47,887 bases of DNA from Candidatus Adlerbacteria bacterium (lineage in GTDB: Bacteria; Patescibacteriota; Minisyncoccia; Phycocordibacterales; SBAW01), in contig CAIJVL010000035.1 of the NCBI GenBank assembly GCA_903824155.1, forward strand, positions 1-47,887. The letters run 5' to 3'. The notes under the pieces were generated by a model that was not told where the DNA came from, searched no databases, and saw only the letters and a list, made by a program, of their open reading frames with translations. Both the position numbers and the translations under genes were made by a program. Below, in pieces: positions 5,219-35,575 of the stretch. The stretch's first letter is position 1, and every line of letters begins with the position of its first letter.

Positions 5219-5416
5219 TTACTCGCCTTCGTGGTCATGAGCGGTATCCTCGGTGCTGTCGAGTGTCCAGCTCTCTTTATCATGGCGAGGCTTGATGATG
5301 TCTTCGACATCCGAGTCATCCTCTTCATATGACTCTGTTTTTGGACGGCGGTCAAACAGCGCCCACATCACCCAGATAGCCACGATGACCAGTATGCCTC
5401 CCCACAAAAAATCCAT
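5219..5416 (-). CDS. Hypothetical small protein (N-terminal TM helix, acidic tail)
   Basis: ORF track 5219..5452. The first 12 codons lie inside the secY terminator hairpin, so the call was trimmed to ATG 5416 (MDFLWGGILVIVAIWVMW...). Confidence 0.35.
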   Translation of the reverse strand: MDFLWGGILVIVAIWVMWALFDRRPKTESYEEDDSDVEDIIKPRHDKESWTLDSTEDTAHDHEGE

Positions 5417-5434
5417 ACCCCCAACATACCATAT

Positions 5435-5466
5435 AAAAAGCCCCCGCCGCATGCGGGGGGCTTTTT
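5435..5466 (-). terminator. Rho-independent terminator after secY
   Basis: The sequence AAAAAGCCCCCGC...GCGGGGGGCTTTTT forms a GC-rich stem with a U run. Confidence 0.75.
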
Positions 5467-5482
5467 ACTTATTTCTAGAATG

Positions 5483-6754
5483 TTAGTACTCGCGGATGGA
5501 GATCTGCGCGTCGACGCGGCGGGCTAGGTCAAGGATTACGGAGACGACGATCAACAAAGCGGTACCGCCAAGCGCCAAGCTTTGGATATTAGTCAGTGAC
5601 TGCACGATGATAGGCATGACCGCAATAAGACCAAGGAAGAGTGCGCCTACCAGCGTAATGCGGGTGATAACTTTGGCCAAATATTCCTCGGTAGGCATCC
5701 CGGGGCGTACGCCGGGGATAAACGCGCCGTTCTTTTGCAAGTTCTCGGCGATAGCGTGCGGATCAAACGTAACTGCGGTGTAAAAGTAGGTAAAGAGTAC
5801 GACGAGTACAAAGTAGACGCTGCCGTAAAAGCCCAAGTTTTGGAGCCACGAAAGGATAAAGCTCGAGGTTGCGGCAAGCCAATGATGTGTTGACGCTTGG
5901 AAGAAGGTTGCAAACATCTGCGGCAGAAGCAGGAACGAAAGCGCAAAGATGATCGGGATAACGCCTGCCTGGTTAAGGCGCAGCGGCAAGTACGTAGACT
6001 GCCCGCCATAGACCTTCATGCCGCGGATGCGCTTGGCGTAGGTAACCGGCACCGGGCGCTCGGCCTCGGTAACCACCACCACTGCCGCAACAACCGCCAC
6101 GGCCGCAACGATAAAGCCGATGTATACCGGCAGCTGCGTCGTGTCGAACGAAAAGAGGAGCTGGCTTACCGTGCGGGGCAAGCGCGCAACGATGCCGGCA
6201 AAGATAAGCAAAGAAACGCCGTTGCCAAGACCGAACTCAGATATAAGCTCGCCGAGCCACATTAGGAGTATTGAGCCTGCGGTAACTACAAGCACGTTTA
6301 CGCCAAACTGGAAGGGAGAGAGGGTCGGCAAGACTGCCTCGCGCTGGAGCAAGAGCAGGAAGCCGATGCCTTGCACCACGGCGATAGGCAACGTAATAAG
6401 GCGCGAGTACTGGCTAAACCGCTGGCGGCCCGCCTCACCCTCTTCCTGGTAGAGCTGCTTGAGGCGCGGCACCATAATGGTAAGAAGCTGCATGATGATG
6501 CTCGAAGTGATGTACGGGCCAACACCCAGCAATACTATGGAAAGGTTTGAAAGCCCGCCGCCTGAAAAGAGGTTAAGCAGGCCAAAGAATTGGTTGTTAT
6601 TAAAAAATTGCTGGAGCTGCGCTGCGTTGATGCCCGGGATCGGTATCGCCGCTAAAAGGCGGAAGATAGCGAGTACCGAGAGCACAAACAAAAGGCGCGA
6701 GCGCAACTGCGCGTCTTTCATCAAAAGCGCGAATTTTTGGAAAAAAGTATTCAT
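5483..6754 (-). CDS. secY: Preprotein translocase subunit SecY
   Basis: This 423-aa multi-pass membrane protein has a typical SecY sequence. It lies after rplO as in spc operons. Confidence 0.97.
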   Translation of the reverse strand: MNTFFQKFALLMKDAQLRSRLLFVLSVLAIFRLLAAIPIPGINAAQLQQFFNNNQFFGLLNLFSGGGLSNLSIVLLGVGPYITSSIIMQLLTIMVPRLKQLYQEEGEAGRQRFSQYSRLITLPIAVVQGIGFLLLLQREAVLPTLSPFQFGVNVLVVTAGSILLMWLGELISEFGLGNGVSLLIFAGIVARLPRTVSQLLFSFDTTQLPVYIGFIVAAVAVVAAVVVVTEAERPVPVTYAKRIRGMKVYGGQSTYLPLRLNQAGVIPIIFALSFLLLPQMFATFFQASTHHWLAATSSFILSWLQNLGFYGSVYFVLVVLFTYFYTAVTFDPHAIAENLQKNGAFIPGVRPGMPTEEYLAKVITRITLVGALFLGLIAVMPIIVQSLTNIQSLALGGTALLIVVSVILDLARRVDAQISIREY

Positions 6755-7288: not shown

Positions 7289-7954
7289 TTAGTTGAGTTT
7301 CTTAAGGGCCTCGATAGCGGCGCGTGCGTTGTTAAGACCGTTTTTTGAACCCGAGTGGAGCTTGGCAACAATGTCAGTAATGCCGGCGAGCTCGAGTACC
7401 GGGCGTACCGATGAACCGGCAACCAAACCGCGGCCGCGTGCCGGCATGAGCAATACGACCGATGCGCAGTACTTAGCCTCTGTGTCGTAGGGAATGGAGT
7501 TATTTTTAGTGAGCGGCACGGTGATCATGTTTTTCTTGGCGTTGCGGACAGCCTTGTCGATTGCCAAAGTGGTATCGCCCGCCTTGCCCAAACCTACGCC
7601 TACTTTGCCCTTTTTGTTGCCGATGATTATGGCAACCGAGAAAGAGAAGCGGCGGCCGCCGGCAACCACGCGGGCTACGCGGCGGATGTTGATCATGCGC
7701 TGGTCATACTCGCTTTTGCGCTCGGGGCGGCGCGAGTTAGAGCGGTTGCCGCCCGGGCGGCCTCCAGCCCCGCCGCGGCCGCCTGCGCCCCCATGACCAC
7801 CAGAGCGGCGGTCAAGCGGGCGTCCGGCGCGGCGTGCCGCATCGGCAAAAGGCGTTGCTGCAGCCGGTGCCGCTGCAGTTGAGACAGCTTCAACAACCTC
7901 CGGTACTACCGGTGTCTCTTCAACTACTACATCTATATTTTCGTTATCAGCCAT
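7289..7954 (-). CDS. rpsE: 30S ribosomal protein S5 (long N-terminal extension with a Gly/Arg-rich tract)
   Basis: The core RVARVVAGGRRFSFSVAIIIGNKKGKVGVGLGKA is S5-like. Confidence 0.93.
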   Translation of the reverse strand: MADNENIDVVVEETPVVPEVVEAVSTAAAPAAATPFADAARRAGRPLDRRSGGHGGAGGRGGAGGRPGGNRSNSRRPERKSEYDQRMINIRRVARVVAGGRRFSFSVAIIIGNKKGKVGVGLGKAGDTTLAIDKAVRNAKKNMITVPLTKNNSIPYDTEAKYCASVVLLMPARGRGLVAGSSVRPVLELAGITDIVAKLHSGSKNGLNNARAAIEALKKLN

Positions 7955-7961
7955 ATATTAT

Positions 7962-8336
7962 TTAAAACTTCAATCCGCCTTCGCGTGCAGCCTCTGCAAG
8001 CATCGAGACCCGGCCAGTATAGCGGAAACCGCCGCGGTCGAACACTACCGTAGTAATCCCTGCTGCCTGTGCGCGTTTTGCCAAGTCCAGCCCCAGCGCT
8101 TTTGCGGCGTCCATCTTCTTCACTTCCTTTCCCTTCTTACCTTTTTCAGCAACTACTTTAGTGCTGCCTGCTACCAGCGTCTTGCCGGCAGTGTCGTCGA
8201 TTATCTGCGCGTGCAAGTAGCGGTTAGACTTGTAGACTGCCAAGCGGGGGCGCTCGGAGGTACCCGCAACCTTGGCGCGGATGCGCGCGTGACGGCGCTG
8301 GTGGTTTTCTGCGTTTTTAATAGTTTTAGTAGACAT
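7962..8336 (-). CDS. rplR: 50S ribosomal protein L18
   Basis: It contains RLAVYKSNRYLHAQIIDD...FDRGGFRYTGRV. Confidence 0.93.
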   Translation of the reverse strand: MSTKTIKNAENHQRRHARIRAKVAGTSERPRLAVYKSNRYLHAQIIDDTAGKTLVAGSTKVVAEKGKKGKEVKKMDAAKALGLDLAKRAQAAGITTVVFDRGGFRYTGRVSMLAEAAREGGLKF

Positions 8337-8342
8337 ACAGGT

Positions 8343-8876
8343 TTATGCGGCTTTCTTGCCCTGCTTGCGGCGGATAACCTCGCCCTCGTAACGGATACCC
8401 TTGCCTTTGTACGGCTCTGGCTTCTTAAGAGCGCGGATGTTTGCGGCAAACTGGCCGACCGCTTCTTTGTCAAAACCCTCAATAGTAAGAGTTCCTTTGT
8501 CTGCCTTAACAGCCAAACCCTCGGGAATCGCTACCTTTACGGGGTGTGAGAAGCCAAGCGCGAGGTTAAGCGTTTTACCCTGGACATCCCACTTGTAACC
8601 GACGCCTTCAACAAGCAGCTTTTTAGAAAAGCCTTTGGTGACGCCCTCGAGCATATTCATGATATGCGAAGCGTACGTACCAACGAGTGCCTGAGCCTCT
8701 TTAGACTCGCCCTTTTTGGCAACCTGTACGCCTTCCTTCCCTACCTCGATAGAGATAAGGCGGTGGGCAGGCTTAACCAACGTGCCCTTGGGGCCTTTGA
8801 CGCGCACCTCCATTGCCGAGACGGTAACCTCGGTTGAAGGCGGCATTGCAATTGGGCGTTTAGCTAAGCGTGACAT
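8343..8876 (-). CDS. rplF: 50S ribosomal protein L6
   Basis: It starts MSRLAKRPI and contains VEGVGYKW and PEPYKGKGIRY. Confidence 0.95.
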   Translation of the reverse strand: MSRLAKRPIAMPPSTEVTVSAMEVRVKGPKGTLVKPAHRLISIEVGKEGVQVAKKGESKEAQALVGTYASHIMNMLEGVTKGFSKKLLVEGVGYKWDVQGKTLNLALGFSHPVKVAIPEGLAVKADKGTLTIEGFDKEAVGQFAANIRALKKPEPYKGKGIRYEGEVIRRKQGKKAA

Positions 8877-8891
8877 ATATTTTTGAATGAT

Positions 8892-9278
8892 TTACCAGAT
8901 TTCGAACAGGGCTTCTCCGCCGACACGCTTAACCATGGCCTCTTTGCCGGTCAAGATTCCTGCCGGAGTCGAGAGGACCAAAAGACCATGGCCCCGCTTG
9001 ACCGGCTTAACGTCGCGGACACCAAGGTACATGCGGCGACTAGGCTTAGAGATGCGCTTAAAGCCTCCAAAGGCCGGACGGTTGTTTTTGTACACAAGAC
9101 CGATGGTAAAGTTGATGTCTTTAGACTTCTTATCTACTTCGCCAATGTAGCCCTCGCGGGCGAGGATGTCGGCAATAGCGAGCTTGATCTGCGAGCGCGG
9201 CAAGGTAACGCGGGCTTTGCCCACCATAGAGGCGTTTTGGAGGCGCACAAGCATGTCTGAAATAGGGTCGTTTACCAT
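8892..9278 (-). CDS. rpsH: 30S ribosomal protein S8
   Basis: ORF track 8892..9365, trimmed to ATG 9278 (MVNDPISDMLVRLQNA), the canonical S8 N-terminus. Confidence 0.95.
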   Translation of the reverse strand: MVNDPISDMLVRLQNASMVGKARVTLPRSQIKLAIADILAREGYIGEVDKKSKDINFTIGLVYKNNRPAFGGFKRISKPSRRMYLGVRDVKPVKRGHGLLVLSTPAGILTGKEAMVKRVGGEALFEIW

Positions 9279-9282
9279 AAAA

Positions 9283-9468
9283 TTACCAAGATGATTTGCG
9301 AATACCCGGGATAAGGCCCTCGTTAGCAGCCTCGCGGAAGCAGGCGCGGCACATACCAAAGTCACGCATAAAGGCGCGCTTGCGGCCGCAGCGGAAGCAG
9401 CGGTTAACTACGCGGGACTTAAATTTGGGCGGGCGGTTTGACCGCGCTACGGTTGATTTTTTTGCCAT
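9283..9468 (-). CDS. rpsN: 30S ribosomal protein S14, zinc-binding type Z (61 aa)
   Basis: The 61-aa protein has CxxC...CxxC (CFRCGRK...CRAC). Confidence 0.95.
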
Positions 9469-9536
9469 TGTAATGGTTTACCCCTGTTTTTCCTTTGGGG
9501 TTACGATTCTGACGGTTCCCCATAGGGGCCTATCAG

Positions 9537-9557
9537 AAAAAAGGAGCCTTGTGAGGC
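9537..9557 (-). promoter_or_regulatory. Small hairpin plus U tract next to the predicted start in the rpsN operon leader
   Basis: The minus strand reads GCCU-CACA-AGGC-UCC-UUUUUU, starting 2 nt after the predicted +1. Confidence 0.3.
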
Positions 9558-9565
9558 GTAGAGGG

Positions 9566-9594
9566 ATACTACCACAGCCATTTGGAGAGCGCAA
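9566..9594 (-). promoter_or_regulatory. Sigma70-like promoter of the rpsN-...-secY sub-operon
   Basis: The minus strand reads TTGCGC-17 nt-TAGTAT, about 90 nt upstream of the rpsN ATG. Confidence 0.5.
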
Positions 9595-9654
9595 ACTTCC
9601 CGACTTCATGTAGATAAAGGGGTTGACTGGCCTAGGGTTTTTGTCCTCTCCTTA

Positions 9655-9683
9655 TTGACATGCAACCATTTTCAGGTTAAACT
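9655..9683 (+). promoter_or_regulatory. Sigma70-like promoter of the island-1 plus-strand gene
   Basis: TTGACA-17 nt-TAAACT, divergent from the rpsN promoter. Confidence 0.5.
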
Positions 9684-9728
9684 CGTATAGGAATAAGGAT
9701 AGCCCTGAAACAAAGACGGAGTAGACCA

Positions 9729-9983
9729 TTGTCCCCTGAGGAAAACCAGAATACCCCTCCTCTCCCCCCAGGCTTTGCCTACGGAGAGGATCTCAGCCTG
9801 AAAGAGTTAGCCATTGAAGCCATCGTGAGTGGCCTCAGAGCTACTCTCACAGAAACTCTGAAGGAAAACGAAACAATTCCGCCAGATGCTGAGCTCAGAC
9901 GCATGGCTGAAACGCAGTATGCCAAGTCGATCAAGAATGGTCTCGACGACCATCTTGGTACCGGCGTACTCCCCAAAAACTAG
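9729..9983 (+). CDS. Hypothetical protein (84 aa)
   Basis: The TTG start is 7 nt after GGAG. It has its own promoter and ends 17 nt before terminator/repeat copy A. Confidence 0.4.
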   Translation: MSPEENQNTPPLPPGFAYGEDLSLKELAIEAIVSGLRATLTETLKENETIPPDAELRRMAETQYAKSIKNGLDDHLGTGVLPKN

Positions 9984-10000
9984 TCCTTTCGTTCAAAATC

Positions 10001-10049
10001 AAAAACCCGCGCCATTCACTTGGTCGCGGGTTTTTTCTTTTCTATTTTT
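10001..10049. repeat. Direct repeat copy A (also a bidirectional terminator hairpin)
   Basis: AAAAACCCGCGCCATTCACTTGGTCGCGGGTTTTTTCTTTTCTATTTTT is near-identical to 11243-11291. Confidence 0.85.
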
Positions 10050-10095
10050 GAAATTCGTATACACTGGCAGCAGACAAATCCTTGGAGTAGTACAA

Positions 10096-10386
10096 ATGAA
10101 ATGTGATTACATGTTGCCAAGAGCCGAACATCCGCTTGTGGCATGGGAAGAGCCTTTACCCTCTTGTTTGCTCGAAGAGGGACATGAGGACTATCATCTC
10201 ATCCTTACGAGCAGCGGGTGGTACCTATTTTATCCCTACACAGAGTCGTGTGGGGATGACTGCGAGTGTGCCCAAGACACCGACTGTACCAACTACGAAT
10301 GCTTTACTTGGTGCAAAATATCCAACGCCGAAGCGCAGCAGTTGCTCAATCCGCTGAAAGCCAAAAAACCAAAACGGAGCCCCTAA
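10096..10386 (+). CDS. Hypothetical Cys-rich protein (96 aa, 8 Cys)
   Basis: ATG 10096 lies in the frame of ORF 9886..10386, 8 nt after GGAG. The C-terminal half contains SCGDDCECAQDTDCTNYECFTWC. A terminator overlaps the stop. Confidence 0.45.
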   Translation: MKCDYMLPRAEHPLVAWEEPLPSCLLEEGHEDYHLILTSSGWYLFYPYTESCGDDCECAQDTDCTNYECFTWCKISNAEAQQLLNPLKAKKPKRSP

Positions 10387-10400
10387 AGGCTCCGTTTTTT
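10373..10400 (+). terminator. Rho-independent terminator
   Basis: AACGGAGCC-CCTAAA-GGCTCCGTT followed by TTTT. Confidence 0.7.
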
Positions 10401-10461
10401 CTATATTAAATTTCGATTCAGCAGAATCGCCTACTGGGTTATTTTTTGAAGGGCGGGTTGC

Positions 10462-10494
10462 AAAAAAGAAAACCGGCTGCTTGTAAGCGGCCGG
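10462..10494 (-). terminator. Rho-independent terminator after the two-gene membrane operon
   Basis: A 10-bp stem CCGGCCGCTT/AAGCAGCCGG is followed by UUUUCUUUUUU on the minus strand. Confidence 0.6.
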
Positions 10495-10511
10495 CTATTT
10501 GTTTAGTTGGG

Positions 10512-10655
10512 CTAAAGCCAACCCAAATTGTGAGCAATAAGGACTACCGCACAAACTGAGCCTATAATCGGCCCAATCCAAGCGCTCTTATCCTTTCGGA
10601 TTTCCGGAAAGCTCTCAGCTTCCGGATAGAGAAGATAGGATATTATTTCTCGCAT
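10512..10655 (-). CDS. Putative 47-aa peptide with a C-terminal TM segment
   Basis: It is not in the ORF track. ATG is 7 nt after GGGAG and 18 nt after the upstream gene's stop. The sequence is MREIISYLLYPEAESFPEIRKDKSAWIGPIIGSVCAVVLIAHNLGWL. Confidence 0.3.
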   Translation of the reverse strand: MREIISYLLYPEAESFPEIRKDKSAWIGPIIGSVCAVVLIAHNLGWL

Positions 10656-10673
10656 TATATTTCTCCCGCAGAG

Positions 10674-11168
10674 TTAGAGGAACAACAGCCGCATCGCTCT
10701 CAAAGTCAGAAAGAGCGAATAGATTAGGCCAAAGTAGAACCCTATCGTTATTATACCGGAAATCCTGAAGATCATCGGTAGGCGAACTCTGTTTTTAAGC
10801 GCAGTAAATGCTCCTCGCTCAATATCAAGTATTGCTTCAAGCTCTGCACCGCGGAGAATAAGTGCAGTTGTTTGGTTTCTGATACCCAGATCCGTGCTGT
10901 ATATACCTAGCACGAGCAGCATACCTAAGCCAGCCGCCAAAAATCCAGCGACCGGATCCTCTGGAGCAGGATGTGGAGTAAACAGCCTGTTTTGAATTAT
11001 AGGCAACGCTGTGCGATACACATTAAACAATCCTGCTGCGATTGGCAGAGCTGCTCCCAAAACTGCAAAGCGCAGGCCTTGGAAGAAATGTAGGTCCGGA
11101 AATAGCAGACCATATTCTGTTCGGAACGTAGCCAACTGTTCTTTATGCTCTTCCCATCGGTCCGACAT
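10674..11168 (-). CDS. Hypothetical integral membrane protein (164 aa)
   Basis: ORF track 10674..11261. The first 31 codons run through the rplE terminator repeat, so the call was trimmed to ATG 11168, preceded by AGAGGAGG at 6 nt. It has several hydrophobic helices. Confidence 0.55.
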   Translation of the reverse strand: MSDRWEEHKEQLATFRTEYGLLFPDLHFFQGLRFAVLGAALPIAAGLFNVYRTALPIIQNRLFTPHPAPEDPVAGFLAAGLGMLLVLGIYSTDLGIRNQTTALILRGAELEAILDIERGAFTALKNRVRLPMIFRISGIITIGFYFGLIYSLFLTLRAMRLLFL

Positions 11169-11242
11169 TTCAACCTCCTCTGATTCGTCTAAACGTAGAA
11201 TACCACAAATATTTAGAAATGCCAATAGTCTTTCCTCATAAG

Positions 11243-11291
11243 AAAAACCCGCGCCATTCACTTGGTCGCGAGTTTTTCTTTTCTATATTTT
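11243..11291. repeat. Direct repeat copy B, which is also the terminator hairpin immediately after rplE
   Basis: AAAAACCCGCGCCATTCACTTGGTCGCGAGTTTTTCTTTTCTATATTTT. The first 28 nt are identical to copy A, followed by one mismatch and one T indel. Confidence 0.85.
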
Positions 11292-11296
11292 AAAAA

Positions 11297-11836
11297 TTAC
11301 TTTTTGAAGGGAAAGCCCAAGTGGGAGAGGTAGGCTTTTGCTTCAGTCTTATTCTTTGCGGTAGTGACTACGGTTGCCGCCATGCCAAAGACGTCTTTAA
11401 TTTCTTCATCGGCAGTCTCGGGAAATACGATGTGCTCTTTAATGCCAAGGGAGTAGTTGCCCATCTCATCGATACCTGTAGTGCCAATGCCTTTAAAGTC
11501 TTTAGTGCGAGGAAGCGCGATGTGCACGAGGCGGTTAAGAAAGTCCTCGGCGCGCTTGCCGCGCAAGGTTACCTGGTAGCCTATCTTGTCGCCAATGCGG
11601 GTCTTGTAGGTAGCGATAGATTTCTTGGCGCCGCGGCTTGCCGGCTTTTGGCCGGTAATTTTAGCCAAGCGGTTGGCAACCAAATCTACCTTGCCTTTGT
11701 CCTTGGTCATCTTGCCGACGCCGACCGAAATAACTACCTTCTCCACCTTGGGGACCTGCATGCGGTTAGTCCACTTAAAGTCACCTTTAAGCGTATCAAA
11801 CGCACTCTTCTGTTGTTCTTGTATAAGTTTAGGCAT
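11297..11836 (-). CDS. rplE: 50S ribosomal protein L5
   Basis: The 179-aa protein is typical L5 (VPKVEKVVISVGVG..., FPE..., GMAATVVTTA). Confidence 0.96.
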   Translation of the reverse strand: MPKLIQEQQKSAFDTLKGDFKWTNRMQVPKVEKVVISVGVGKMTKDKGKVDLVANRLAKITGQKPASRGAKKSIATYKTRIGDKIGYQVTLRGKRAEDFLNRLVHIALPRTKDFKGIGTTGIDEMGNYSLGIKEHIVFPETADEEIKDVFGMAATVVTTAKNKTEAKAYLSHLGFPFKK

Positions 11837-11846
11837 GGTAGTTCAG

Positions 11847-12128
11847 TTACTTTGCTGCTTTCTTGGCAGTCTTTTCTTTCTTGGCAGACTTCTCCTTCTT
11901 GGAATCCTTAAGGTTTACATTGCTTGCGTGTATCGGAAAGTGCTTGTCGATTATCTGTCCTGCGTGGCCTTCGCGGCGGGCCTTTTGGTGCTTCTTCTTC
12001 ATACCAACGCCCTCAACGAGGACCATTGCAAGCTTGGGAAACACCTCAAGCACTTTGCCTGACTTCCCCTTTTCATTACCGGCAAGTACCACTACGGTGT
12101 CACCTTTTTTTACATGTAAAGTGTTCAT
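11847..12128 (-). CDS. rplX: 50S ribosomal protein L24 (Lys-rich C-terminal tail)
   Basis: ORF track 11847..12329, trimmed to ATG 12128 ([26 protein letters not shown]), the L24 KOW motif. Confidence 0.92.
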
Positions 12129-12132
12129 AGTG

Positions 12133-12513
12133 TTATACGACTTCAGGCGCGCGAGAAATAATCGTCTGGTAGCCAAGCTCTTGGAGCTCGCGCGGTATCG
12201 GGCCAAAGATGCGTCCTGCCTTCGGCTCTTTTTTGTCCTTGCCGGAGGTCTCCAAAATAACCACGGCGTTTTCGTCAAAGCGGATGTACGAGCCGTCCTT
12301 GCGGCGGAAAGGCTTCTTTTGGCGAACAACGACGGCCTTCAAAATATCTTTCTTCTTAACGGCCTTGCGCGGCTCGGCGGTTTGTACCGAAAGCACCACC
12401 ACCTCGCCGATTTCTGCATAGCGCTTGTGCGATGATCCGGGAATCTTGAAGATGCGGCCGATTTTGGCGCCGGTGTTGTCTGCTATTACGACTAGTGAGC
12501 GATCTTGAATCAT
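12133..12513 (-). CDS. rplN: 50S ribosomal protein L14
   Basis: It starts [17 protein letters not shown] and contains IRFDENAVV. Confidence 0.97.
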
Positions 12514-12520
12514 ATATTTA

Positions 12521-12766
12521 TTATGCGAAAACGATTTCGAACGACTTAAGCTTTGACAGCGGGCGGCATGAGCGGATTACCACAACCTCGCCCTCCTTGG
12601 CCTTGTTGCCCGGATTGTGTGCGTGGTAGCGCTTGGTGATCTTCATGTACTTCTTGTACTTGGGGTGCTTTACGTAGCGCGAAACTGCCACGACCGCCGT
12701 ATCGGTCATTTTGTCGGACATTACCGTGCCGCGAAGTATTTTCTTGTGTGCAATTTTAGTTTCCAT
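12521..12766 (-). CDS. rpsQ: 30S ribosomal protein S17
   Basis: It contains GTVMSDKMTDTAVVAVSRYVKHPKYKKY. Confidence 0.93.
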   Translation of the reverse strand: METKIAHKKILRGTVMSDKMTDTAVVAVSRYVKHPKYKKYMKITKRYHAHNPGNKAKEGEVVVIRSCRPLSKLKSFEIVFA

Positions 12767-12770
12767 ATAT

Positions 12771-12971
12771 TTATTTCGCTACCGCTTTACGCGCATTAGT
12801 TTCGGTCAAAGCGCGGGCGATCTCCTTGCGGATAGTGCGCGCCTCTTTAACGTTGTGGTTTTTACTCCCCGAAGCATTAAAGCGCAATGTGCGCAATGCT
12901 TCGCGCTTCTCGCTGACAAACTTAGCGAGATCCTTGGAGTCATGATTAGTGAAATTAGTTTTCTTAGCCAT
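12771..12971 (-). CDS. rpmC: 50S ribosomal protein L29
   Basis: The 66-aa helical protein sits in the conserved slot between rplP and rpsQ and contains LRFNASGSKNHN. Confidence 0.88.
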   Translation of the reverse strand: MAKKTNFTNHDSKDLAKFVSEKREALRTLRFNASGSKNHNVKEARTIRKEIARALTETNARKAVAK

Positions 12972-12979
12972 ATATTTGT

Positions 12980-13402
12980 TTATGCGTGGCGCGAGACAAC
13001 CTTTGCCTTAAGCGGAAGCTTCTTAGCGGCGTTGTTAAGTGCAGCTACAGCAGTCTTGTCATCGACACCGTCTACCTCAAACAAGATGCGTCCCGGCCAG
13101 ATCTCCACCTCGTATCCTACCGGGTCGCCCTTACCCTTGCCGAGCTTTACCTCCGGCGGCTTTTGGGTAAAAGGCTTGTCAGGAAATACGCGCAGCCACA
13201 TCTTGCCGGTCTTGCCCATTGAGCGGACGATAACCTTGCGAGCGCTCTCAAGCTGGTTAGAGCGTACGCGTGCCGGCGTCGTTGCCTTAAGGCCATGCGA
13301 GCCAAAGGCAATGGTAATGCCGCGGGTTGCGATTTTTACCTTTTTAGGGTTGTGGCGCATCGTGTGCCACTTGCGGAATTTTACTTTCTTAGGGGTCAAC
13401 AT
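12980..13402 (-). CDS. rplP: 50S ribosomal protein L16
   Basis: It starts MLTPKKVKFRKWH and contains GKGKGDPVGYEVEIWPGRILFE. Confidence 0.97.
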   Translation of the reverse strand: MLTPKKVKFRKWHTMRHNPKKVKIATRGITIAFGSHGLKATTPARVRSNQLESARKVIVRSMGKTGKMWLRVFPDKPFTQKPPEVKLGKGKGDPVGYEVEIWPGRILFEVDGVDDKTAVAALNNAAKKLPLKAKVVSRHA

Positions 13403-33429: not shown

Positions 33430-34020
33430 ATGCAATACCAAGAAAAAAAGTTCGACCTTCCTGCTCTGGACGGCATTTCGGCAAAATCGGTCGAGGAGCA
33501 TTTGGGCCTGTACGCCGGTTATGTTAAAAATTTTAATGCGATAAGCGCAGCCATAGAGGACTTGCTAAAGGATGCGGACAAAAATGCGCTTGCGATAGCC
33601 GAGTTGCGCCGCCGCCACTCGTTTGAGTTTGACGGCATGAAGCTCCACGAGCTGTACTTTCCCCAGTTCGAGGGAGCACCGACTGCACTTGCTTCCGACA
33701 GTTCATTTTCACAAGTGGTAACCGCGCATTGGGGCTCGCCTGATGCAATGATTGCGCGCGTACGACAAACCGCGATGATGCGTGGCCCGGGCTGGTCAAT
33801 CCTCTATTACAATCCTGAGTCAAAAGCATTCCATATGAGCTTTGTCGGCGAGCAGCATCAAGGCCACTTTGCAACGCTGCCTATTATCTTGGCGCTCGAC
33901 GTATGGGAGCATGCATTTTTGCTCGACTACGGCGCACAAGGCAAAGGCAAGTATGTGGACGCGTTTTTCAAAAACCTAAACTGGAAAGTTATTGAGCAGC
34001 GCTTCGATAACGTGAAATAG
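33430..34020 (+). CDS. sodA: Fe/Mn superoxide dismutase family protein
   Basis: It has the DVWEHAF motif, LHELYF and a C-terminal NLNW. By hand alignment to E. coli FeSOD, all four metal ligands appear to be retained. Confidence 0.8.
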   Translation: MQYQEKKFDLPALDGISAKSVEEHLGLYAGYVKNFNAISAAIEDLLKDADKNALAIAELRRRHSFEFDGMKLHELYFPQFEGAPTALASDSSFSQVVTAHWGSPDAMIARVRQTAMMRGPGWSILYYNPESKAFHMSFVGEQHQGHFATLPIILALDVWEHAFLLDYGAQGKGKYVDAFFKNLNWKVIEQRFDNVK

Positions 34021-35575
34021 AAAAAATAGTTAGCGGTACATATGCCGCAACTAAAATCCAAACCGGAAATTGTGCAACAGTCGCTGTCGAATATGGCAGC
34101 GACTGTGTCGTTGTAGCCACCAGCATGATCCACTTGAGCGCAAGGTCGCACACCACCGTTGGCAGCAGCGCGAGCGCTTCGCTCACCAACCCTACGAGGC
34201 CCGCGATAAATCCGGCGAGCATCGCAAGCGGCACGACGGGCAATGCCAAAATATTTGCCGGCAAGGCAAAAAAAGAAAGCGTGCCGTTAAAGTACAGCAG
34301 CGCGGGCGTTACAAAAATTTCGACCGCAAACGTTGTAGCAACAATCGAGCGCAAATCAAAGCGTTTGTAATTGGGTATGCGCCACAGTTTTTGCTCGACC
34401 CATGGCGCCAAAGTGATAAGTCCAAAAGTTGCGAGCACGCTCAAAATAAATGAGGAGTCGTGAAGCAGGCTCGACGGATTCCACAAAACCATTCCCATAG
34501 TGGCAACGCTTAAACTGCGCAGCGCCAGCGCCGAACGATGCAGGTAGCGCGCAAACAATGCAACAAGCGCCATGATAAGCGCGCGCACCGTAGTGGCGCC
34601 AAAGCCAGTCATCGCTGCAAATAAAATCATCAATACTGCACCAACGCCATAACCAGCCGTGCGCGGCAAAAAGGCCAGCGCTCTAAAAACTCCTTCGGAA
34701 ACAATAGTGATGTTGTGCCCCGAGAGCACGACCACGTGCACCAAGCTCGATGCAACAAATGCCTGCGTGAGAGACTGTGGAATCCCGCGCCGCTCGCCGA
34801 GCAAAATACCTTCAAGCAGCGAGCCGTCGGGTTCGGGAAATAATTTCTCTACCGACCGCTCGAACAAATGTTTAGTATCAAACAAAAAAGTTTGGAAAAT
34901 ATATTGGGGTGCAAACCCGTTTTGGTTTACGCTCAGTATGGTTGCATGCGGCATCATTGCCGAAATGCCCTGCGCCTCCAAGTATCCCTGATAGTCAAAC
35001 AAATGGCCGGTGTTTGTTTCAAACGGCTGCGGCCTCTCGATTGTGCCTTGCAGCACGACCGTGTCGCCGTAGCTCACCTCTTCGTTGGGGCCGACTATCG
35101 CCAACAGCTCGCCCTGCCTGCCTGCCGGCAGGCTTGCGCCGTCTATTTTGGTAACCTCCACATTTATATGAAGTGACGTAGCGCGGCGCTCGGGGTCGTT
35201 GCTAACCACTCCCTCGATAACTTTTTTATCCTTGGTAGCTGTGCTCACGTACGGCAGCAAACTTTCAGCCGATTGAGTAGCAATAAACATCTCAGCCCGT
35301 AAAACACCAAGTACAAGCGCCGCCAAGAGGATCGCAGCGAGAAACATTTTTTTATTGTGCATCAGCGCACCCAACGCGATTAACGCAAGTGCGGCGCCTA
35401 TGCTCACACCTAAATACACAACTCCAACGGTAAAAATTAGCGCAAGCGCAACCCCGCTAACCACACCAGCGGCAAGACAATATAAAAAAGCGCCCCCGGT
35501 ATCCTGTTCCACGAGGCAAGTTCTACCAAACTCAAGAGGTTTGTCTATGCCGTGAAACAGACTACAACGCGGCAA
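33989..35575 (-). CDS. comEC: ComEC/Rec2 family DNA internalisation channel (no C-terminal MBL domain)
   Basis: The 528-aa multi-pass protein has the competence-domain signature FVASSLVHVVVLSGHNITIV. Confidence 0.8.
   Translation of the reverse strand: MPRCSLFHGIDKPLEFGRTCLVEQDTGGAFLYCLAAGVVSGVALALIFTVGVVYLGVSIGAALALIALGALMHNKKMFLAAILLAALVLGVLRAEMFIATQSAESLLPYVSTATKDKKVIEGVVSNDPERRATSLHINVEVTKIDGASLPAGRQGELLAIVGPNEEVSYGDTVVLQGTIERPQPFETNTGHLFDYQGYLEAQGISAMMPHATILSVNQNGFAPQYIFQTFLFDTKHLFERSVEKLFPEPDGSLLEGILLGERRGIPQSLTQAFVASSLVHVVVLSGHNITIVSEGVFRALAFLPRTAGYGVGAVLMILFAAMTGFGATTVRALIMALVALFARYLHRSALALRSLSVATMGMVLWNPSSLLHDSSFILSVLATFGLITLAPWVEQKLWRIPNYKRFDLRSIVATTFAVEIFVTPALLYFNGTLSFFALPANILALPVVPLAMLAGFIAGLVGLVSEALALLPTVVCDLALKWIMLVATTTQSLPYSTATVAQFPVWILVAAYVPLTIFSISRYRSAAQ

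What the first reader, a model, noticed from the sequence alone, without database searches (positions are those of the whole stretch)
10001..11291. A 1.2-kb insertion next to rplE is bracketed by 49-bp direct repeats of the rplE terminator
The hairpin terminator immediately after the rplE stop (11243-11291) recurs at 10001-10049. The first 28 nt are identical, followed by one mismatch and one T indel. At the second site it terminates the plus-strand 84-aa gene.

The segment between the copies holds a Cys-rich 96-aa gene (plus strand). It also holds an SD-led two-gene membrane operon (164 aa plus 47 aa, minus strand) with its own terminators. The simplest reading is that rplE and the 84-aa gene once shared one bidirectional terminator. 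A cassette then inserted with duplication of about 49 bp of target.

The duplication is much longer than a transposase target-site duplication. It looks more like att-type site-specific integration or recombination at the hairpin. No recombinase is present in the window.
Basis: seen in the sequence. Interest (0 to 1): 0.6.

Follow-up and report, generated by a model that had tools for sequence, protein, structure and literature searches.

The report
Duplicated terminator flanks ribosomal-operon cargo slot
In this ultra-small (CPR) bacterium the gap between ribosomal genes rplE and rpsN holds swappable accessory genes. The repeated rplE terminator is a real recombination footprint, because a close relative has one terminator and no cargo. 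The cargo is two separately acquired modules, not one integrating cassette.

Summary
**Observation: confirmed.** 10001-10053 and 11243-11295 are direct repeats: 28 nt exact, 50 of 54 aligned columns identical. Weaker similarity extends to the stop codons of p84 and rplE, so the whole ~75-nt spacer is duplicated. The 28-mer occurs only twice in the 818-kb genome, so it is not a REP-like element.

**Empty site: found.** Relative L052 (L5 96% identical) has rplE, one terminator, then a p84 homologue, and both window copies align to that one segment.

**The 1.2 kb is composite.**
- L043 has the Cys-rich gene directly next to rplE, with one hairpin and no membrane module.
- L045 has the membrane module between two hairpins, with no Cys-rich gene.
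- A 15-nt relic of the rplE 3' end (10439-10453, unique in the genome) marks a second joint.

**Wider pattern.** Across 18 same-genus genomes the gap runs from 190 to 5,957 bp with unrelated cargo. Two other species duplicate their own, unrelated boundary sequence at the slot ends.

**Mechanism.** There is no integrase in the cargo. The genome has one Xer-like tyrosine recombinase, plus ComEC and RecA. The most likely mechanism is short-homology or illegitimate recombination between slot alleles exchanged among relatives. Site-specific att integration is not excluded.

This scan has already described the rplE-rpsN slot in other CPR genomes.

The parts
9283..9468 (-). rpsN (61-aa zinc-type S14), the conserved left flank of the slot
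   Evidence: Pfam Ribosomal_S14, E 1.3e-20. It is 88-100% identical in all relatives.
9469..9600 (-). rpsN's own promoter (TTGCGC-18-TAGTAT here, TTGACT-17-TATATT in relatives) and a ~125-nt structured leader. This unit makes the slot transcriptionally tolerant of cargo.
   Evidence: Conserved in 17 relatives. The long-range helix UUCUG...CAGAA shows compensatory changes, and a third hairpin covers the Shine-Dalgarno site. No Rfam match.
9655..9683 (+). Conserved divergent promoter (TTGACA-17-TAAACT) that drives the first cargo gene
   Evidence: Promoter scan. The sequence is conserved in L036, L052 and L053 even where the downstream gene belongs to a different family.
9729..9983 (+). p84, a small fast-evolving protein. 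Module C, the oldest occupant.
   Evidence: Homologues at 35-57% identity sit in the same position in L052, L045, L036 and G018. L043, L044 and L053 carry an unrelated p111 family there. No Pfam, NCBIfam or PADLOC match at reported thresholds.
9981..10057 (.). Spacer copy 1: the p84 3' UTR, bidirectional terminator hairpin H1 (core repeat 10001-10053) and the T-run. It terminates p84 on the plus strand.
   Evidence: Orthologous to the single copy in L052 (1840-1892) and to the hairpins of L043, L036 and L045.
10096..10386 (+). cys96, a Cys/His-rich 96-aa protein. Module B.
   Evidence: Three relatives at 74-77% identity have C3, C24, C52, C56, C58, C69, H12, H30 and H34 invariant. It lies next to the hairpin in L043, L036 and L044 without the membrane module. 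The AlphaFold model is poor (pLDDT 59).
10371..10398 (.). T2, the bidirectional terminator of cys96. Its loop holds the cys96 stop codon. In L043 this same hairpin also ends rplE.
   Evidence: Terminator scan on both strands. L043 layout.
10414..10438 (-). E30, a 25-nt mini-hairpin element (CCCAGTAGGCGATTCTGCTGAATCG) lying between the relic stop codon and T2
   Evidence: A second copy follows the rplY stop on contig C4. Further copies are in G050 (two), G063, L044 and L052. In most copies it lies directly after a stop codon and before an A-run plus terminator; in L052 it is 18 nt past the stop.
10439..10453 (-). Relic of the rplE 3' end (CCCTTCAAAAAATAA vs the real CCCTTCAAAAAGTAA at 11297-11311). 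It marks the distal joint of the membrane module.
   Evidence: At up to 1 mismatch this 15-mer occurs only at these two places in the whole genome, on the same strand. L043 shows rplE once abutted T2.
10454..11242 (-). Module A: terminator T3 (10473-10494), p47 (10512-10655), m164 (10674-11168) and its promoter (TTGGCA-17-TGgTATTCT, 11197-11225)
   Evidence: ORFs and Shine-Dalgarno sites; promoter and T3. The m164-plus-small-partner pair recurs at unrelated loci in other CPR contigs and twice more in this genome. It is absent from the slots of L052, L043, L036, L053 and 17 genus genomes.
11225..11299 (.). Spacer copy 2: a degenerate p84-UTR remnant, hairpin H2 (core repeat 11243-11295) and the native rplE trailer. 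It terminates rplE on the minus strand.
   Evidence: The trailer TAATTTTTAAAATATAGAAAAGAAAAAC matches L052's rplE trailer.
11297..11836 (-). rplE (L5), the conserved right flank of the slot
   Evidence: Pfam Ribosomal_L5 and L5_C. 73-98% amino-acid identity in relatives.

Best explanation
The rplE-rpsN spacer of the spc ribosomal operon is a hypervariable cargo slot in this CPR genus. rpsN has its own promoter and leader, so genes can be parked there.

In the window the slot reads, from rplE: H2 | module A (m164, p47) | relic of the rplE end + E30 + T2 | module B (cys96) | H1 | module C (p84) | promoter and leader | rpsN. H1 and H2 are two copies of the complete ~75-nt rplE-p84 intergenic bidirectional terminator. 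A close relative has that spacer as a single copy.

**Shown**
- The duplication, an empty site, and the independent distribution of modules A and B.
- A second joint made of 15 nt of the rplE 3' end.
- The same kind of boundary duplication, with unrelated sequences, in two other species.

**Inferred**
- The joints arose by short-homology or illegitimate recombination between alternative slot alleles, of the homology-facilitated or Campbell-like type.
- Those alleles are exchanged among related strains by DNA uptake and RecA, anchored in the very conserved ribosomal flanks.
- Selection keeps only products in which rplE and the convergent neighbour each retain a terminator.
- The repeats also allow precise loss of the cargo.
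- No dedicated recombinase is required.
For: **The repeat**
- It is real and low-copy.
- Both copies are strong hairpins on both strands.

**Comparative series**
- Empty site in L052: window 7600-10053 and 11244-13105 both end on L052 1840-1892.
- L043 reads rplE-T2-cys93-H-p111, with one hairpin and no module A.
- L036 has a sulfatase in place of module A and a different rplE hairpin.
- L045 reads H-promoter-m164'-T3-H-p84', with no cys96.
- L053 has four other genes.

**Second joint.** The rplE-end relic is unique in the genome.

**Wider pattern**
- The gap is 190-5,957 bp in 18 genus genomes with unrelated cargo: Cas1, a GT2 glycosyltransferase, DPBB and DUF7768 proteins.
- G014 and G015 duplicate their own boundary sequences, 37 nt and 27 nt, at both ends of their cargo.
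- The rpsG slot in this window has the same layout: gene end, new terminator, promoter and cargo, relic of the gene end, old terminator.

**Machinery**
- ComEC and RecA are present.
- No serine recombinase or rve transposase was found, and there is one tyrosine recombinase, on another contig.
- Competence genes are common in Patescibacteria (PMC12455944).
- 10-18% of small variable segments in other bacteria are flanked by direct repeats (PMC2884548).
Against: - No donor sequence is in hand, so the order and direction of events is not resolved. L052 could be a precise deletion rather than the ancestor.
- 15 nt is below the usual minimum for RecA-driven exchange.
- The hairpin is more conserved between lineages than the flanking coding DNA: 1-3 changes in 25 nt against 14-22% divergence. 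It also has the shape of a recombinase core site, with 9-12-bp inverted arms around a 6-nt centre, so a trans-acting recombinase is not excluded.
- H-A-H occurs in two lineages. At least one event therefore duplicated the whole spacer, which simple one-sided illegitimate joining does not obviously produce.
- The relatives are short metagenomic contigs of unknown organisms.
Confidence: 0.55

Rival explanations
1. Site-specific (att-type) integration. The hairpin H, or the rplE 3' end, is an attachment site. A circular cassette carrying a matching site was integrated by a recombinase acting in trans, for example the genome's single Xer-like tyrosine recombinase, leaving attL- and attR-like direct repeats. 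This resembles integron cassettes, IMEX elements or pdif modules.
For: - Direct repeats flank the cargo, and an empty site has one copy.
- H-A-H recurs in a second lineage.
- The hairpin sequence, including most of its loop, is conserved across lineages.
- The arms-plus-6-nt-centre geometry fits a recombinase core site.
- Relics of gene 3' ends at joints, here and at rpsG, are typical of integrases that target gene ends.
- One tyrosine recombinase exists in the genome.
Against: - There is no integrase in or near the cargo.
- Module B is not bounded by H on its rplE side, and L043 has a single H.
- Duplicated boundaries in G014 and G015, and the rpsG relic, share no core sequence with H.
- H is found only at this locus in this genome and in none of 79 other species of the genus at up to 3 mismatches.
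- The cassettes carry their own promoters, unlike integron cassettes.
Confidence: 0.17
2. Replication or repair error at a palindrome. The terminator hairpin stalled a fork or was cut. Repair by template switching or a staggered break copied the spacer on both sides of captured DNA.
For: - The repeated unit is centred on a strong palindrome.
- The process is sequence-independent, as needed for G014 and G015.
Against: - The repeat extends well beyond the palindrome, to both stop codons.
- It does not explain the separate rplE-end relic.
- It does not explain the independent distribution of modules A and B.
Confidence: 0.1
3. Two old, independent terminators kept alike by gene conversion. On this reading the repeat says nothing about how the cargo arrived.
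For: - H-like hairpins sit next to rplE in the more distant G002 and G003, and next to the p84-family gene in L036 and L043, so both positions are old.
- The two copies in L045 have diverged from each other, whereas the window's are nearly identical.
Against: - L052 has one copy serving both genes.
- The repeat includes degenerate remnants of the other gene's side of the spacer, namely the p84 stop-codon region next to H2. That indicates duplication of a single spacer.
Confidence: 0.1
4. Assembly artefact. Two strain variants were joined at the shared hairpin.
For: - The genome is a 69-contig metagenome assembly.
- Several genus genomes break contigs in this slot.
Against: - The exact repeat is only 28 nt.
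- An ENA scaffold and other contigs up to 51 kb carry the same layout.
- L045 independently shows hairpin-module-hairpin.
Confidence: 0.03

Closest known systems
Chromosomal hotspots or small variable segments between conserved core genes (Touzain et al. 2010, PMC2884548; the hotspot concept of Oliveira et al. 2017 is cited from my own knowledge)
   Same: - The flanking genes are very conserved.
- The content differs in almost every relative.
- The cargo has no mobility genes.
- A minority of such segments are flanked by short direct repeats that permit deletion.
   Different: - The slot lies inside the spc ribosomal operon, one of the most conserved gene orders known (Brandis 2021, PMC8046335).
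- The repeat is a whole bidirectional terminator.
- The operon is restarted by a dedicated promoter and leader.
Homology-facilitated illegitimate recombination during natural transformation (de Vries and Wackernagel 2002, cited in PMC2884548; own knowledge)
   Same: - There is one conserved anchor, rplE or the rpsN side.
- The other joint lies at a very short homology.
- The joint leaves a short duplication.
- ComEC and RecA are present.
   Different: No donor is known, so the anchor and joint are inferred. Duplication of a full 75-nt spacer is larger than typical joints of this kind.
Integrative elements that target the 3' end of a gene and rebuild it (tRNA, tmRNA or protein-gene att sites)
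   Same: Direct repeats flank the cargo, a relic of the target gene's 3' end lies distal to the insert, and the target gene stays intact.
   Different: There is no integrase, the insert is under 1 kb, the repeated sequences at different slots are unrelated, and no excision product has been seen.
Integron gene cassettes and Xer-dependent pdif or IMEX modules
   Same: Small modules appear in different orders in different genomes, and some boundaries are imperfect palindromes.
   Different: - No IntI, attI or common promoter is present.
- The cassettes have their own promoters and terminators.
- Not all boundaries are the hairpin.
- The hairpin is confined to this locus.

Membership tests
Transposon or insertion sequence with target-site duplication | Short target duplication (about 2-14 bp) flanking the element | tested here: not met
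   The repeat core is 53-54 nt, and about 75 nt with the degenerate ends.
Transposon or insertion sequence with target-site duplication | Terminal inverted repeats and a transposase gene | tested here: not met
   No inverted repeats lie at the cargo ends. The cargo proteins have no Pfam match at curated thresholds, and rve is absent from the genome.
REP/BIME-like dispersed hairpin repeat | Many copies scattered over the genome | tested here: not met
   Two copies in 818 kb at up to 3 mismatches. One further hairpin on C29 shares only the stem. No match in 79 other species of the genus.
Intrinsic bidirectional terminator | GC-rich stem flanked by an A-run and a T-run, placed after convergent genes | tested here: met
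   Folds of -20 to -23 kcal/mol on both strands. The hairpin lies 17 nt after the p84 stop and directly after the rplE trailer. Termination itself is not testable here.
Integrase-mediated island (att-type) | Direct repeats (att core) at both ends, and an empty site with one copy | tested here: met
   The empty site is in a related lineage, not in the same population.
Integrase-mediated island (att-type) | Integrase encoded in the element or adjacent to it | tested here: not met
   The four cargo proteins have no recombinase domain. The only Phage_integrase match is on contig C41.
Integrase-mediated island (att-type) | The same core sequence is used wherever the system acts | tested here: not met
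   Boundary repeats in G014, G015 and the rpsG slot share no sequence with H.
Integrase-mediated island (att-type) | Excised circular form or empty allele in the same population | not testable with these tools
Integron cassette array | An IntI gene with attI and a common promoter next to the array | tested here: not met
   No recombinase lies in the slot or in the rest of this 47.9-kb contig. The genome's one tyrosine recombinase is on another contig.
Integron cassette array | Promoterless cassettes, each ending in an attC hairpin | tested here: not met
   Module A and p84 have promoter-like sites of their own. Module B is bounded by T2, E30 and the relic on its rplE side, not by H.
Xer-dependent modules (IMEX, pdif) | Flanking sites that match the host dif site (two ~11-bp arms and a 6-8-bp centre) | not tested
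   H has inverted arms around a 6-nt centre, but the genome's dif site was not identified. This is a resemblance only.
Core-gene-flanked horizontal-transfer hotspot | Conserved flanks with variable, unrelated content across relatives and no mobility genes | tested here: met
   18 genus genomes have gaps of 190-5,957 bp, and close relatives show at least 7 layouts with unrelated cargo.
Homology-facilitated illegitimate recombination joint | One homologous anchor plus a joint at a short homology, with a small duplication or deletion | tested here: inconclusive
   A 15-nt relic of the rplE end lies at the distal joint. ComEC and RecA are present. No donor sequence is available.

The most novel reading that the evidence does not exclude
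The terminator hairpin and the relics of gene 3' ends are attachment sites of a cassette-exchange system that runs without a cassette-borne integrase. It would be driven in trans by the genome's single Xer-like tyrosine recombinase, or by an unknown enzyme. This would make the ribosomal-operon slots of CPR bacteria (rplE|rpsN, rpsG|fusA, rplB|rpsS) a miniature, integron-like store of self-expressed accessory genes.
Probability: 0.1. Interest if true: 0.85.

Novelty: new variant of a known kind. Interest (0 to 1): 0.5.

Why it matters
The S10-spc ribosomal gene cluster is the textbook example of frozen gene order. Here it contains a slot that is refilled so often that organisms with 95-98% identical L5 carry at least seven different layouts.

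This locus offers a resolved series of alleles with sequence footprints at the joints:
- empty;
- module B only;
- module A only, between two hairpins;
- modules A and B together;
- other cargo.

It is therefore a good place to work out how genome-reduced, uncultured CPR bacteria gain and lose small accessory genes without carrying mobile-element machinery. It also shows how a bidirectional terminator can be duplicated so that both convergent genes stay insulated. The cargo families themselves (m164/p47, cys96, p84) have no known function.

Tried and rejected
- **Public-collection scans for the hairpin.** The exact 28-mer and a degenerate hairpin pattern gave 0 hits in genome contigs and metagenome contigs. 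The pattern also gave none in 79 other species of the genus. Close relatives came only from protein-identity look-ups.
- **Rfam.** Nothing relevant in 7500-13000; one weak chance hit.
- **Cargo function.** The four cargo proteins have no match at reported thresholds in Pfam, NCBIfam or PADLOC.
- **m164.** The model is decent (pLDDT 81, three to four long helices). It has no PDB fold match better than E = 0.56, only generic helical bundles. The family is tiny: 35 representatives among 1.84 billion proteins.
- **cys96.** The model is too poor to search (pLDDT 59).
- **tRNA genes as targets.** None found in L043, L044, L045, L052 or L053.
- **Base composition.** The slot is only slightly AT-richer than the flanks, which is not informative.
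- **T2 trailer as a decayed spacer copy.** I considered this and dropped it. AAAAGAAAAAC / GTTTTTCTTTT is a common terminator flank in this genome and genus (15 copies here).
- **Dating the duplication from copy identity.** Not possible, because the hairpin is conserved between lineages anyway.
Full report
**1.

The window's minus strand carries the S10-spc ribosomal operon. rplE lies at 11297-11836 and the 61-aa zinc-type rpsN at 9283-9468, with 1,828 bp between them.

Inside that gap, 10001-10053 and 11243-11295 are direct repeats. The first 28 nt are exact, and 50 of 54 aligned columns are identical (2 substitutions, 2 one-base indels). No shuffle of the window gives two copies. The 818-kb, 69-contig genome holds only these two copies at up to 3 mismatches. 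Contig C29 has one more hairpin with the same stem and a different loop.

Both copies fold strongly on both strands. The single stem substitution in the rplE-side copy is an A-C mismatch on the plus strand. On the minus strand, the one rplE uses, it is a U-G pair.

Aligned with flanks, the similarity runs on more weakly to the p84 stop codon on one side (14 of 21 columns) and to the rplE stop codon on the other. The duplicated unit is therefore the entire ~75-nt spacer between two convergent genes.

An ENA scaffold that is 100% identical to the window reproduces both copies and all four flanks, and contigs up to 51 kb carry the same proteins. At that identity the scaffold may come from the same sample, so its independence is limited. 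The exact repeat is only 28 nt, which also argues against a chimeric join.

**2. The gap is a cargo slot across the genus**

In 18 same-genus genomes where both genes are on one contig, the rplE-rpsN distance runs from 190 to 5,957 bp, with a median of about 1.5 kb. None of the 17 others holds cys96, p47 or m164, and only G018 has a p84 homologue.

Their cargo is unrelated and includes:
- Cas1 (G013);
- a GT2 glycosyltransferase (G018);
- a DPBB protein (G009);
- DUF7768 (G017);
- a 999-aa secreted protein (G014).

In at least four further genus genomes the contig ends inside or at the edge of the slot (G004, G007, G008, G010). That is what strain-level variability does to metagenome assemblies.

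rpsN is served by its own conserved promoter and a ~125-nt leader. The leader's long-range helix shows compensatory changes, so the operon is restarted after the slot.

This scan has described the slot and the leader several times in other CPR genomes. In Gammaproteobacteria and Bacilli, by contrast, the cluster is stable and insertions fall between operons (PMC8046335).

**3. Close relatives give an allele series**

Protein-identity look-ups recovered short contigs from other samples whose L5 is 95-98% identical and whose S14 is 97-100% identical (DNA 82-87% identical). Reading from rplE towards rpsN:
- **L052:** rplE, trailer, one hairpin, an E30 element, a p84 homologue, promoter and leader. 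Window 7600-10053 and window 11244-13105 both end on the same L052 segment, 1840-1892.
- **L043:** rplE, 72 nt, T2, cys93, one hairpin, p111. The Cys-rich gene is directly beside rplE, there is no membrane module, and there is one hairpin.
- **L036:** rplE, a different hairpin, a sulfatase, T2, cys98, the hairpin orthologue, p77. There is no repeat.
- **L045:** another gene, hairpin, the module A promoter, a truncated m164 (87% identical over 60 aa), T3, hairpin, a p84 homologue. The membrane module lies between two hairpins with no cys96.
- **L053:** rplE, another hairpin, three unrelated genes, a p111-family gene.
- **L044:** a p111-family gene, a hairpin, E30, cys96, T2, then other DNA.

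The 1.2 kb between the window's repeats is therefore two modules with separate histories. Module B (cys96 with T2) is a shared, older neighbour of the hairpin. Module A (promoter, m164, p47, T3) is an addition.

Module A is a two-gene unit that also sits at unrelated loci in other CPR contigs. Those loci are beside an IS30-like transposase and rpsL, between glyA and tmk, and after rpsT. It occurs twice more in this genome. Only 3 of 80 genus species have the family, including this genome.

**4. A second joint**

On the minus strand, directly after T3, lies CCCTTCAAAAAATAA (10439-10453). The real rplE end is CCCTTCAAAAAGTAA (11297-11311). At up to one mismatch these are the only two occurrences in the genome.

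The relic is followed by the E30 element and T2. That reproduces the layout 'ribosomal gene stop, E30, A-run, terminator' seen after rplY on contig C4 and in G050 and G063. It also fits L043, where rplE abuts T2. So module A, together with the native rplE trailer and H2, lies between the real rplE end and a relic of it.

The rpsG slot in the same window has the same plan.

**5. How it most likely works**

*Shown:*
- A whole-spacer duplication around the cargo.
- An allele with one spacer copy and no cargo.
- Independent assortment of modules A and B.
- A 15-nt gene-end duplication at one joint.

*Also shown:* two other species duplicate their own, unrelated boundary sequences at the two ends of their cargo.
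- G014: a 37-nt hairpin, 33 of 37 identical, copies 3.9 kb apart.
- G015: 27 nt spanning the rpsN -35 box and the start of the rplE terminator, copies 1.6 kb apart.

Since the duplicated sequences share nothing, the process looks position-dependent rather than sequence-dependent.

The genome has ComEC (in this window, 33989-35575) and RecA. It has one tyrosine recombinase on another contig, and no serine recombinase or rve transposase was found.

*Inferred:* slot alleles move between related strains by uptake and recombination anchored in the very conserved ribosomal flanks. Occasional joints at very short homologies, inside the spacer or in the last codons of rplE, put two alleles in series and duplicate the boundary. 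Only products that leave rplE and its convergent neighbour each with a terminator persist.

The window can be derived in either of two ways:
- from an L043-like recipient that took rplE-H-A from an L045/L052-like donor;
- from an L045-like recipient that took B, with 15 nt of the donor's rplE, from an L043-like donor.

I cannot tell which. The repeats also allow precise deletion, so L052 may be ancestral or a reversion.

H-like hairpins next to rplE in the more distant G002 and G003 show that the hairpin is old at this locus. A similar hairpin next to the rpsN promoter in G005 points the same way.

**6. Rivals**

Site-specific integration remains possible. Points for it:
- The hairpin is better conserved than the neighbouring coding DNA.
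- It has inverted arms around a 6-nt centre.
- It brackets module A in two lineages.

Points against it:
- No integrase accompanies the cargo.
- Module B lacks the hairpin on one side.
- Other slots use unrelated sequences.
- The hairpin occurs nowhere else in the genome or in the other genus representatives searched.

Palindrome-induced repair errors do not explain why the repeat reaches both stop codons, nor the separate relic. Gene conversion between two old terminators may keep the copies alike, but it does not explain the remnant of the p84 side next to H2. A misassembly is very unlikely.

**7. What the cargo does**

This is unknown.
- **m164** is a three-span membrane protein with a long N-terminal helix (pLDDT 81). 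It has a strongly conserved REYxxLFxDLHFFQGLRFAVLGA motif.
- **p47** is a one-span partner that always follows it.
- The m164 family has 35 representatives among 1.84 billion proteins and no structural relative.
- **cys96** keeps six Cys and three His invariant, which suggests metal binding.
- **p84** is a fast-evolving small acidic protein driven by a conserved divergent promoter. In other lineages that promoter drives an unrelated p111 family.
- None matches a known defence, toxin-antitoxin or annotated family at reported thresholds.

**8. Verdict**

It is wrong on a single cassette, and att-type integration is unproven.

This is a new variant of a known kind, namely a core-gene-flanked hotspot with repeat footprints. 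It is notable for lying inside the spc operon and for the unusually clear allele series. Interest is moderate.

Noticed in passing
window 9469-9600 (minus strand); L015-L031, L036, L043, L052, L053: rpsN has its own promoter and a conserved ~125-nt leader. The leader has a first hairpin plus a U-run, then a long-range helix UUCUG...CAGAA with compensatory changes (for example GC 9, AU 5, CG 1 at one pair). A third hairpin pairs with the Shine-Dalgarno site. There is no Rfam match. Other agents of this scan suggested an S8 operator.
   Followed up: partly
window 10414-10438 (minus); own contig C4:30399-30423; G050:C1:284746 and 286312; G063:C2:33963; L044:189-224; L052:1890-1926 and 327-364: E30 is a 25-nt mini-hairpin element (CCCAGTAGGCGATYCTGCTGRATCG). 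In most copies it sits directly after a stop codon and before an A-run plus terminator; in L052 it is 18 nt past the p84' stop. It is present or absent at otherwise alignable positions. L044 has it inserted precisely where the window has none, and L052 has it between the hairpin and p84'. It behaves like a tiny insertable 3'-UTR element, at low copy number.
   Followed up: partly
window 9655-9712; L036:1235-1280; L052, L053: A conserved divergent promoter (TTGACAT...GGTTAAACTCGTAT) is kept while the gene behind it alternates between two unrelated small-protein families. The p84 family is in the window, L036, L045, L052 and G018. The p111 family, with a PxDLAGEI motif, is in L043, L044 and L053.
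   Followed up: partly
L023 (G013:C3), 5242-6318 minus strand and nearby: The 6-kb slot of G013 starts with a Cas1 gene (Pfam E 7e-67) right after rplE. It also holds a 38-nt exact direct repeat 4.28 kb apart and a 165-nt repeat in two paralogous genes.
   Followed up: no
own genome C49:7890-8547; C68:27332-27898 joined to C30:1-255: There are two more copies of the m164-plus-small-partner module. The C49 copy appears frameshifted. The C68/C30 copy lies next to rpsT and ruvA, as its homologue does in L041 and L042, and links those two contig ends.
   Followed up: partly
L026 (G001 slot), slot positions 591, 1025, 1428: Three tandem units of about 400-430 nt each begin with the same 40-nt promoter-like sequence (TTTTTGTAACCCCTTATTTYTTGRCAGTTGT...). 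This array of small cassettes resembles the one noted between rplB and rpsS in this window.
   Followed up: no
window 29456-29850 (minus strand): The rpsG slot has the same plan as the module A joint. The last 27 nt of rpsG (AAAGCCTTYGCCCACTTCGCTTGGTAA) recur after a new terminator, a promoter and a 100-aa gene whose C-terminus they supply. The old terminator follows.
   Followed up: partly
own contig C29:2448-2490: A third terminator has the same stem and flanks as H (AAAAACCCGCGCCAT...GGTCGCGGGTTTTT) but a longer, different loop.
   Followed up: no
L035:3159-3258 (equals window 10791-11064): The ENA scaffold has a 100-N gap replacing 274 nt inside m164. This may reflect low coverage or strain variation in the membrane gene.
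   Followed up: no
L037:2952-4513: In another CPR lineage the m164 homologue (63% identical) lies between an IS30-like transposase (HTH_38 plus rve) and rpsL-rpsG. That places it again at the edge of a ribosomal operon.
   Followed up: no
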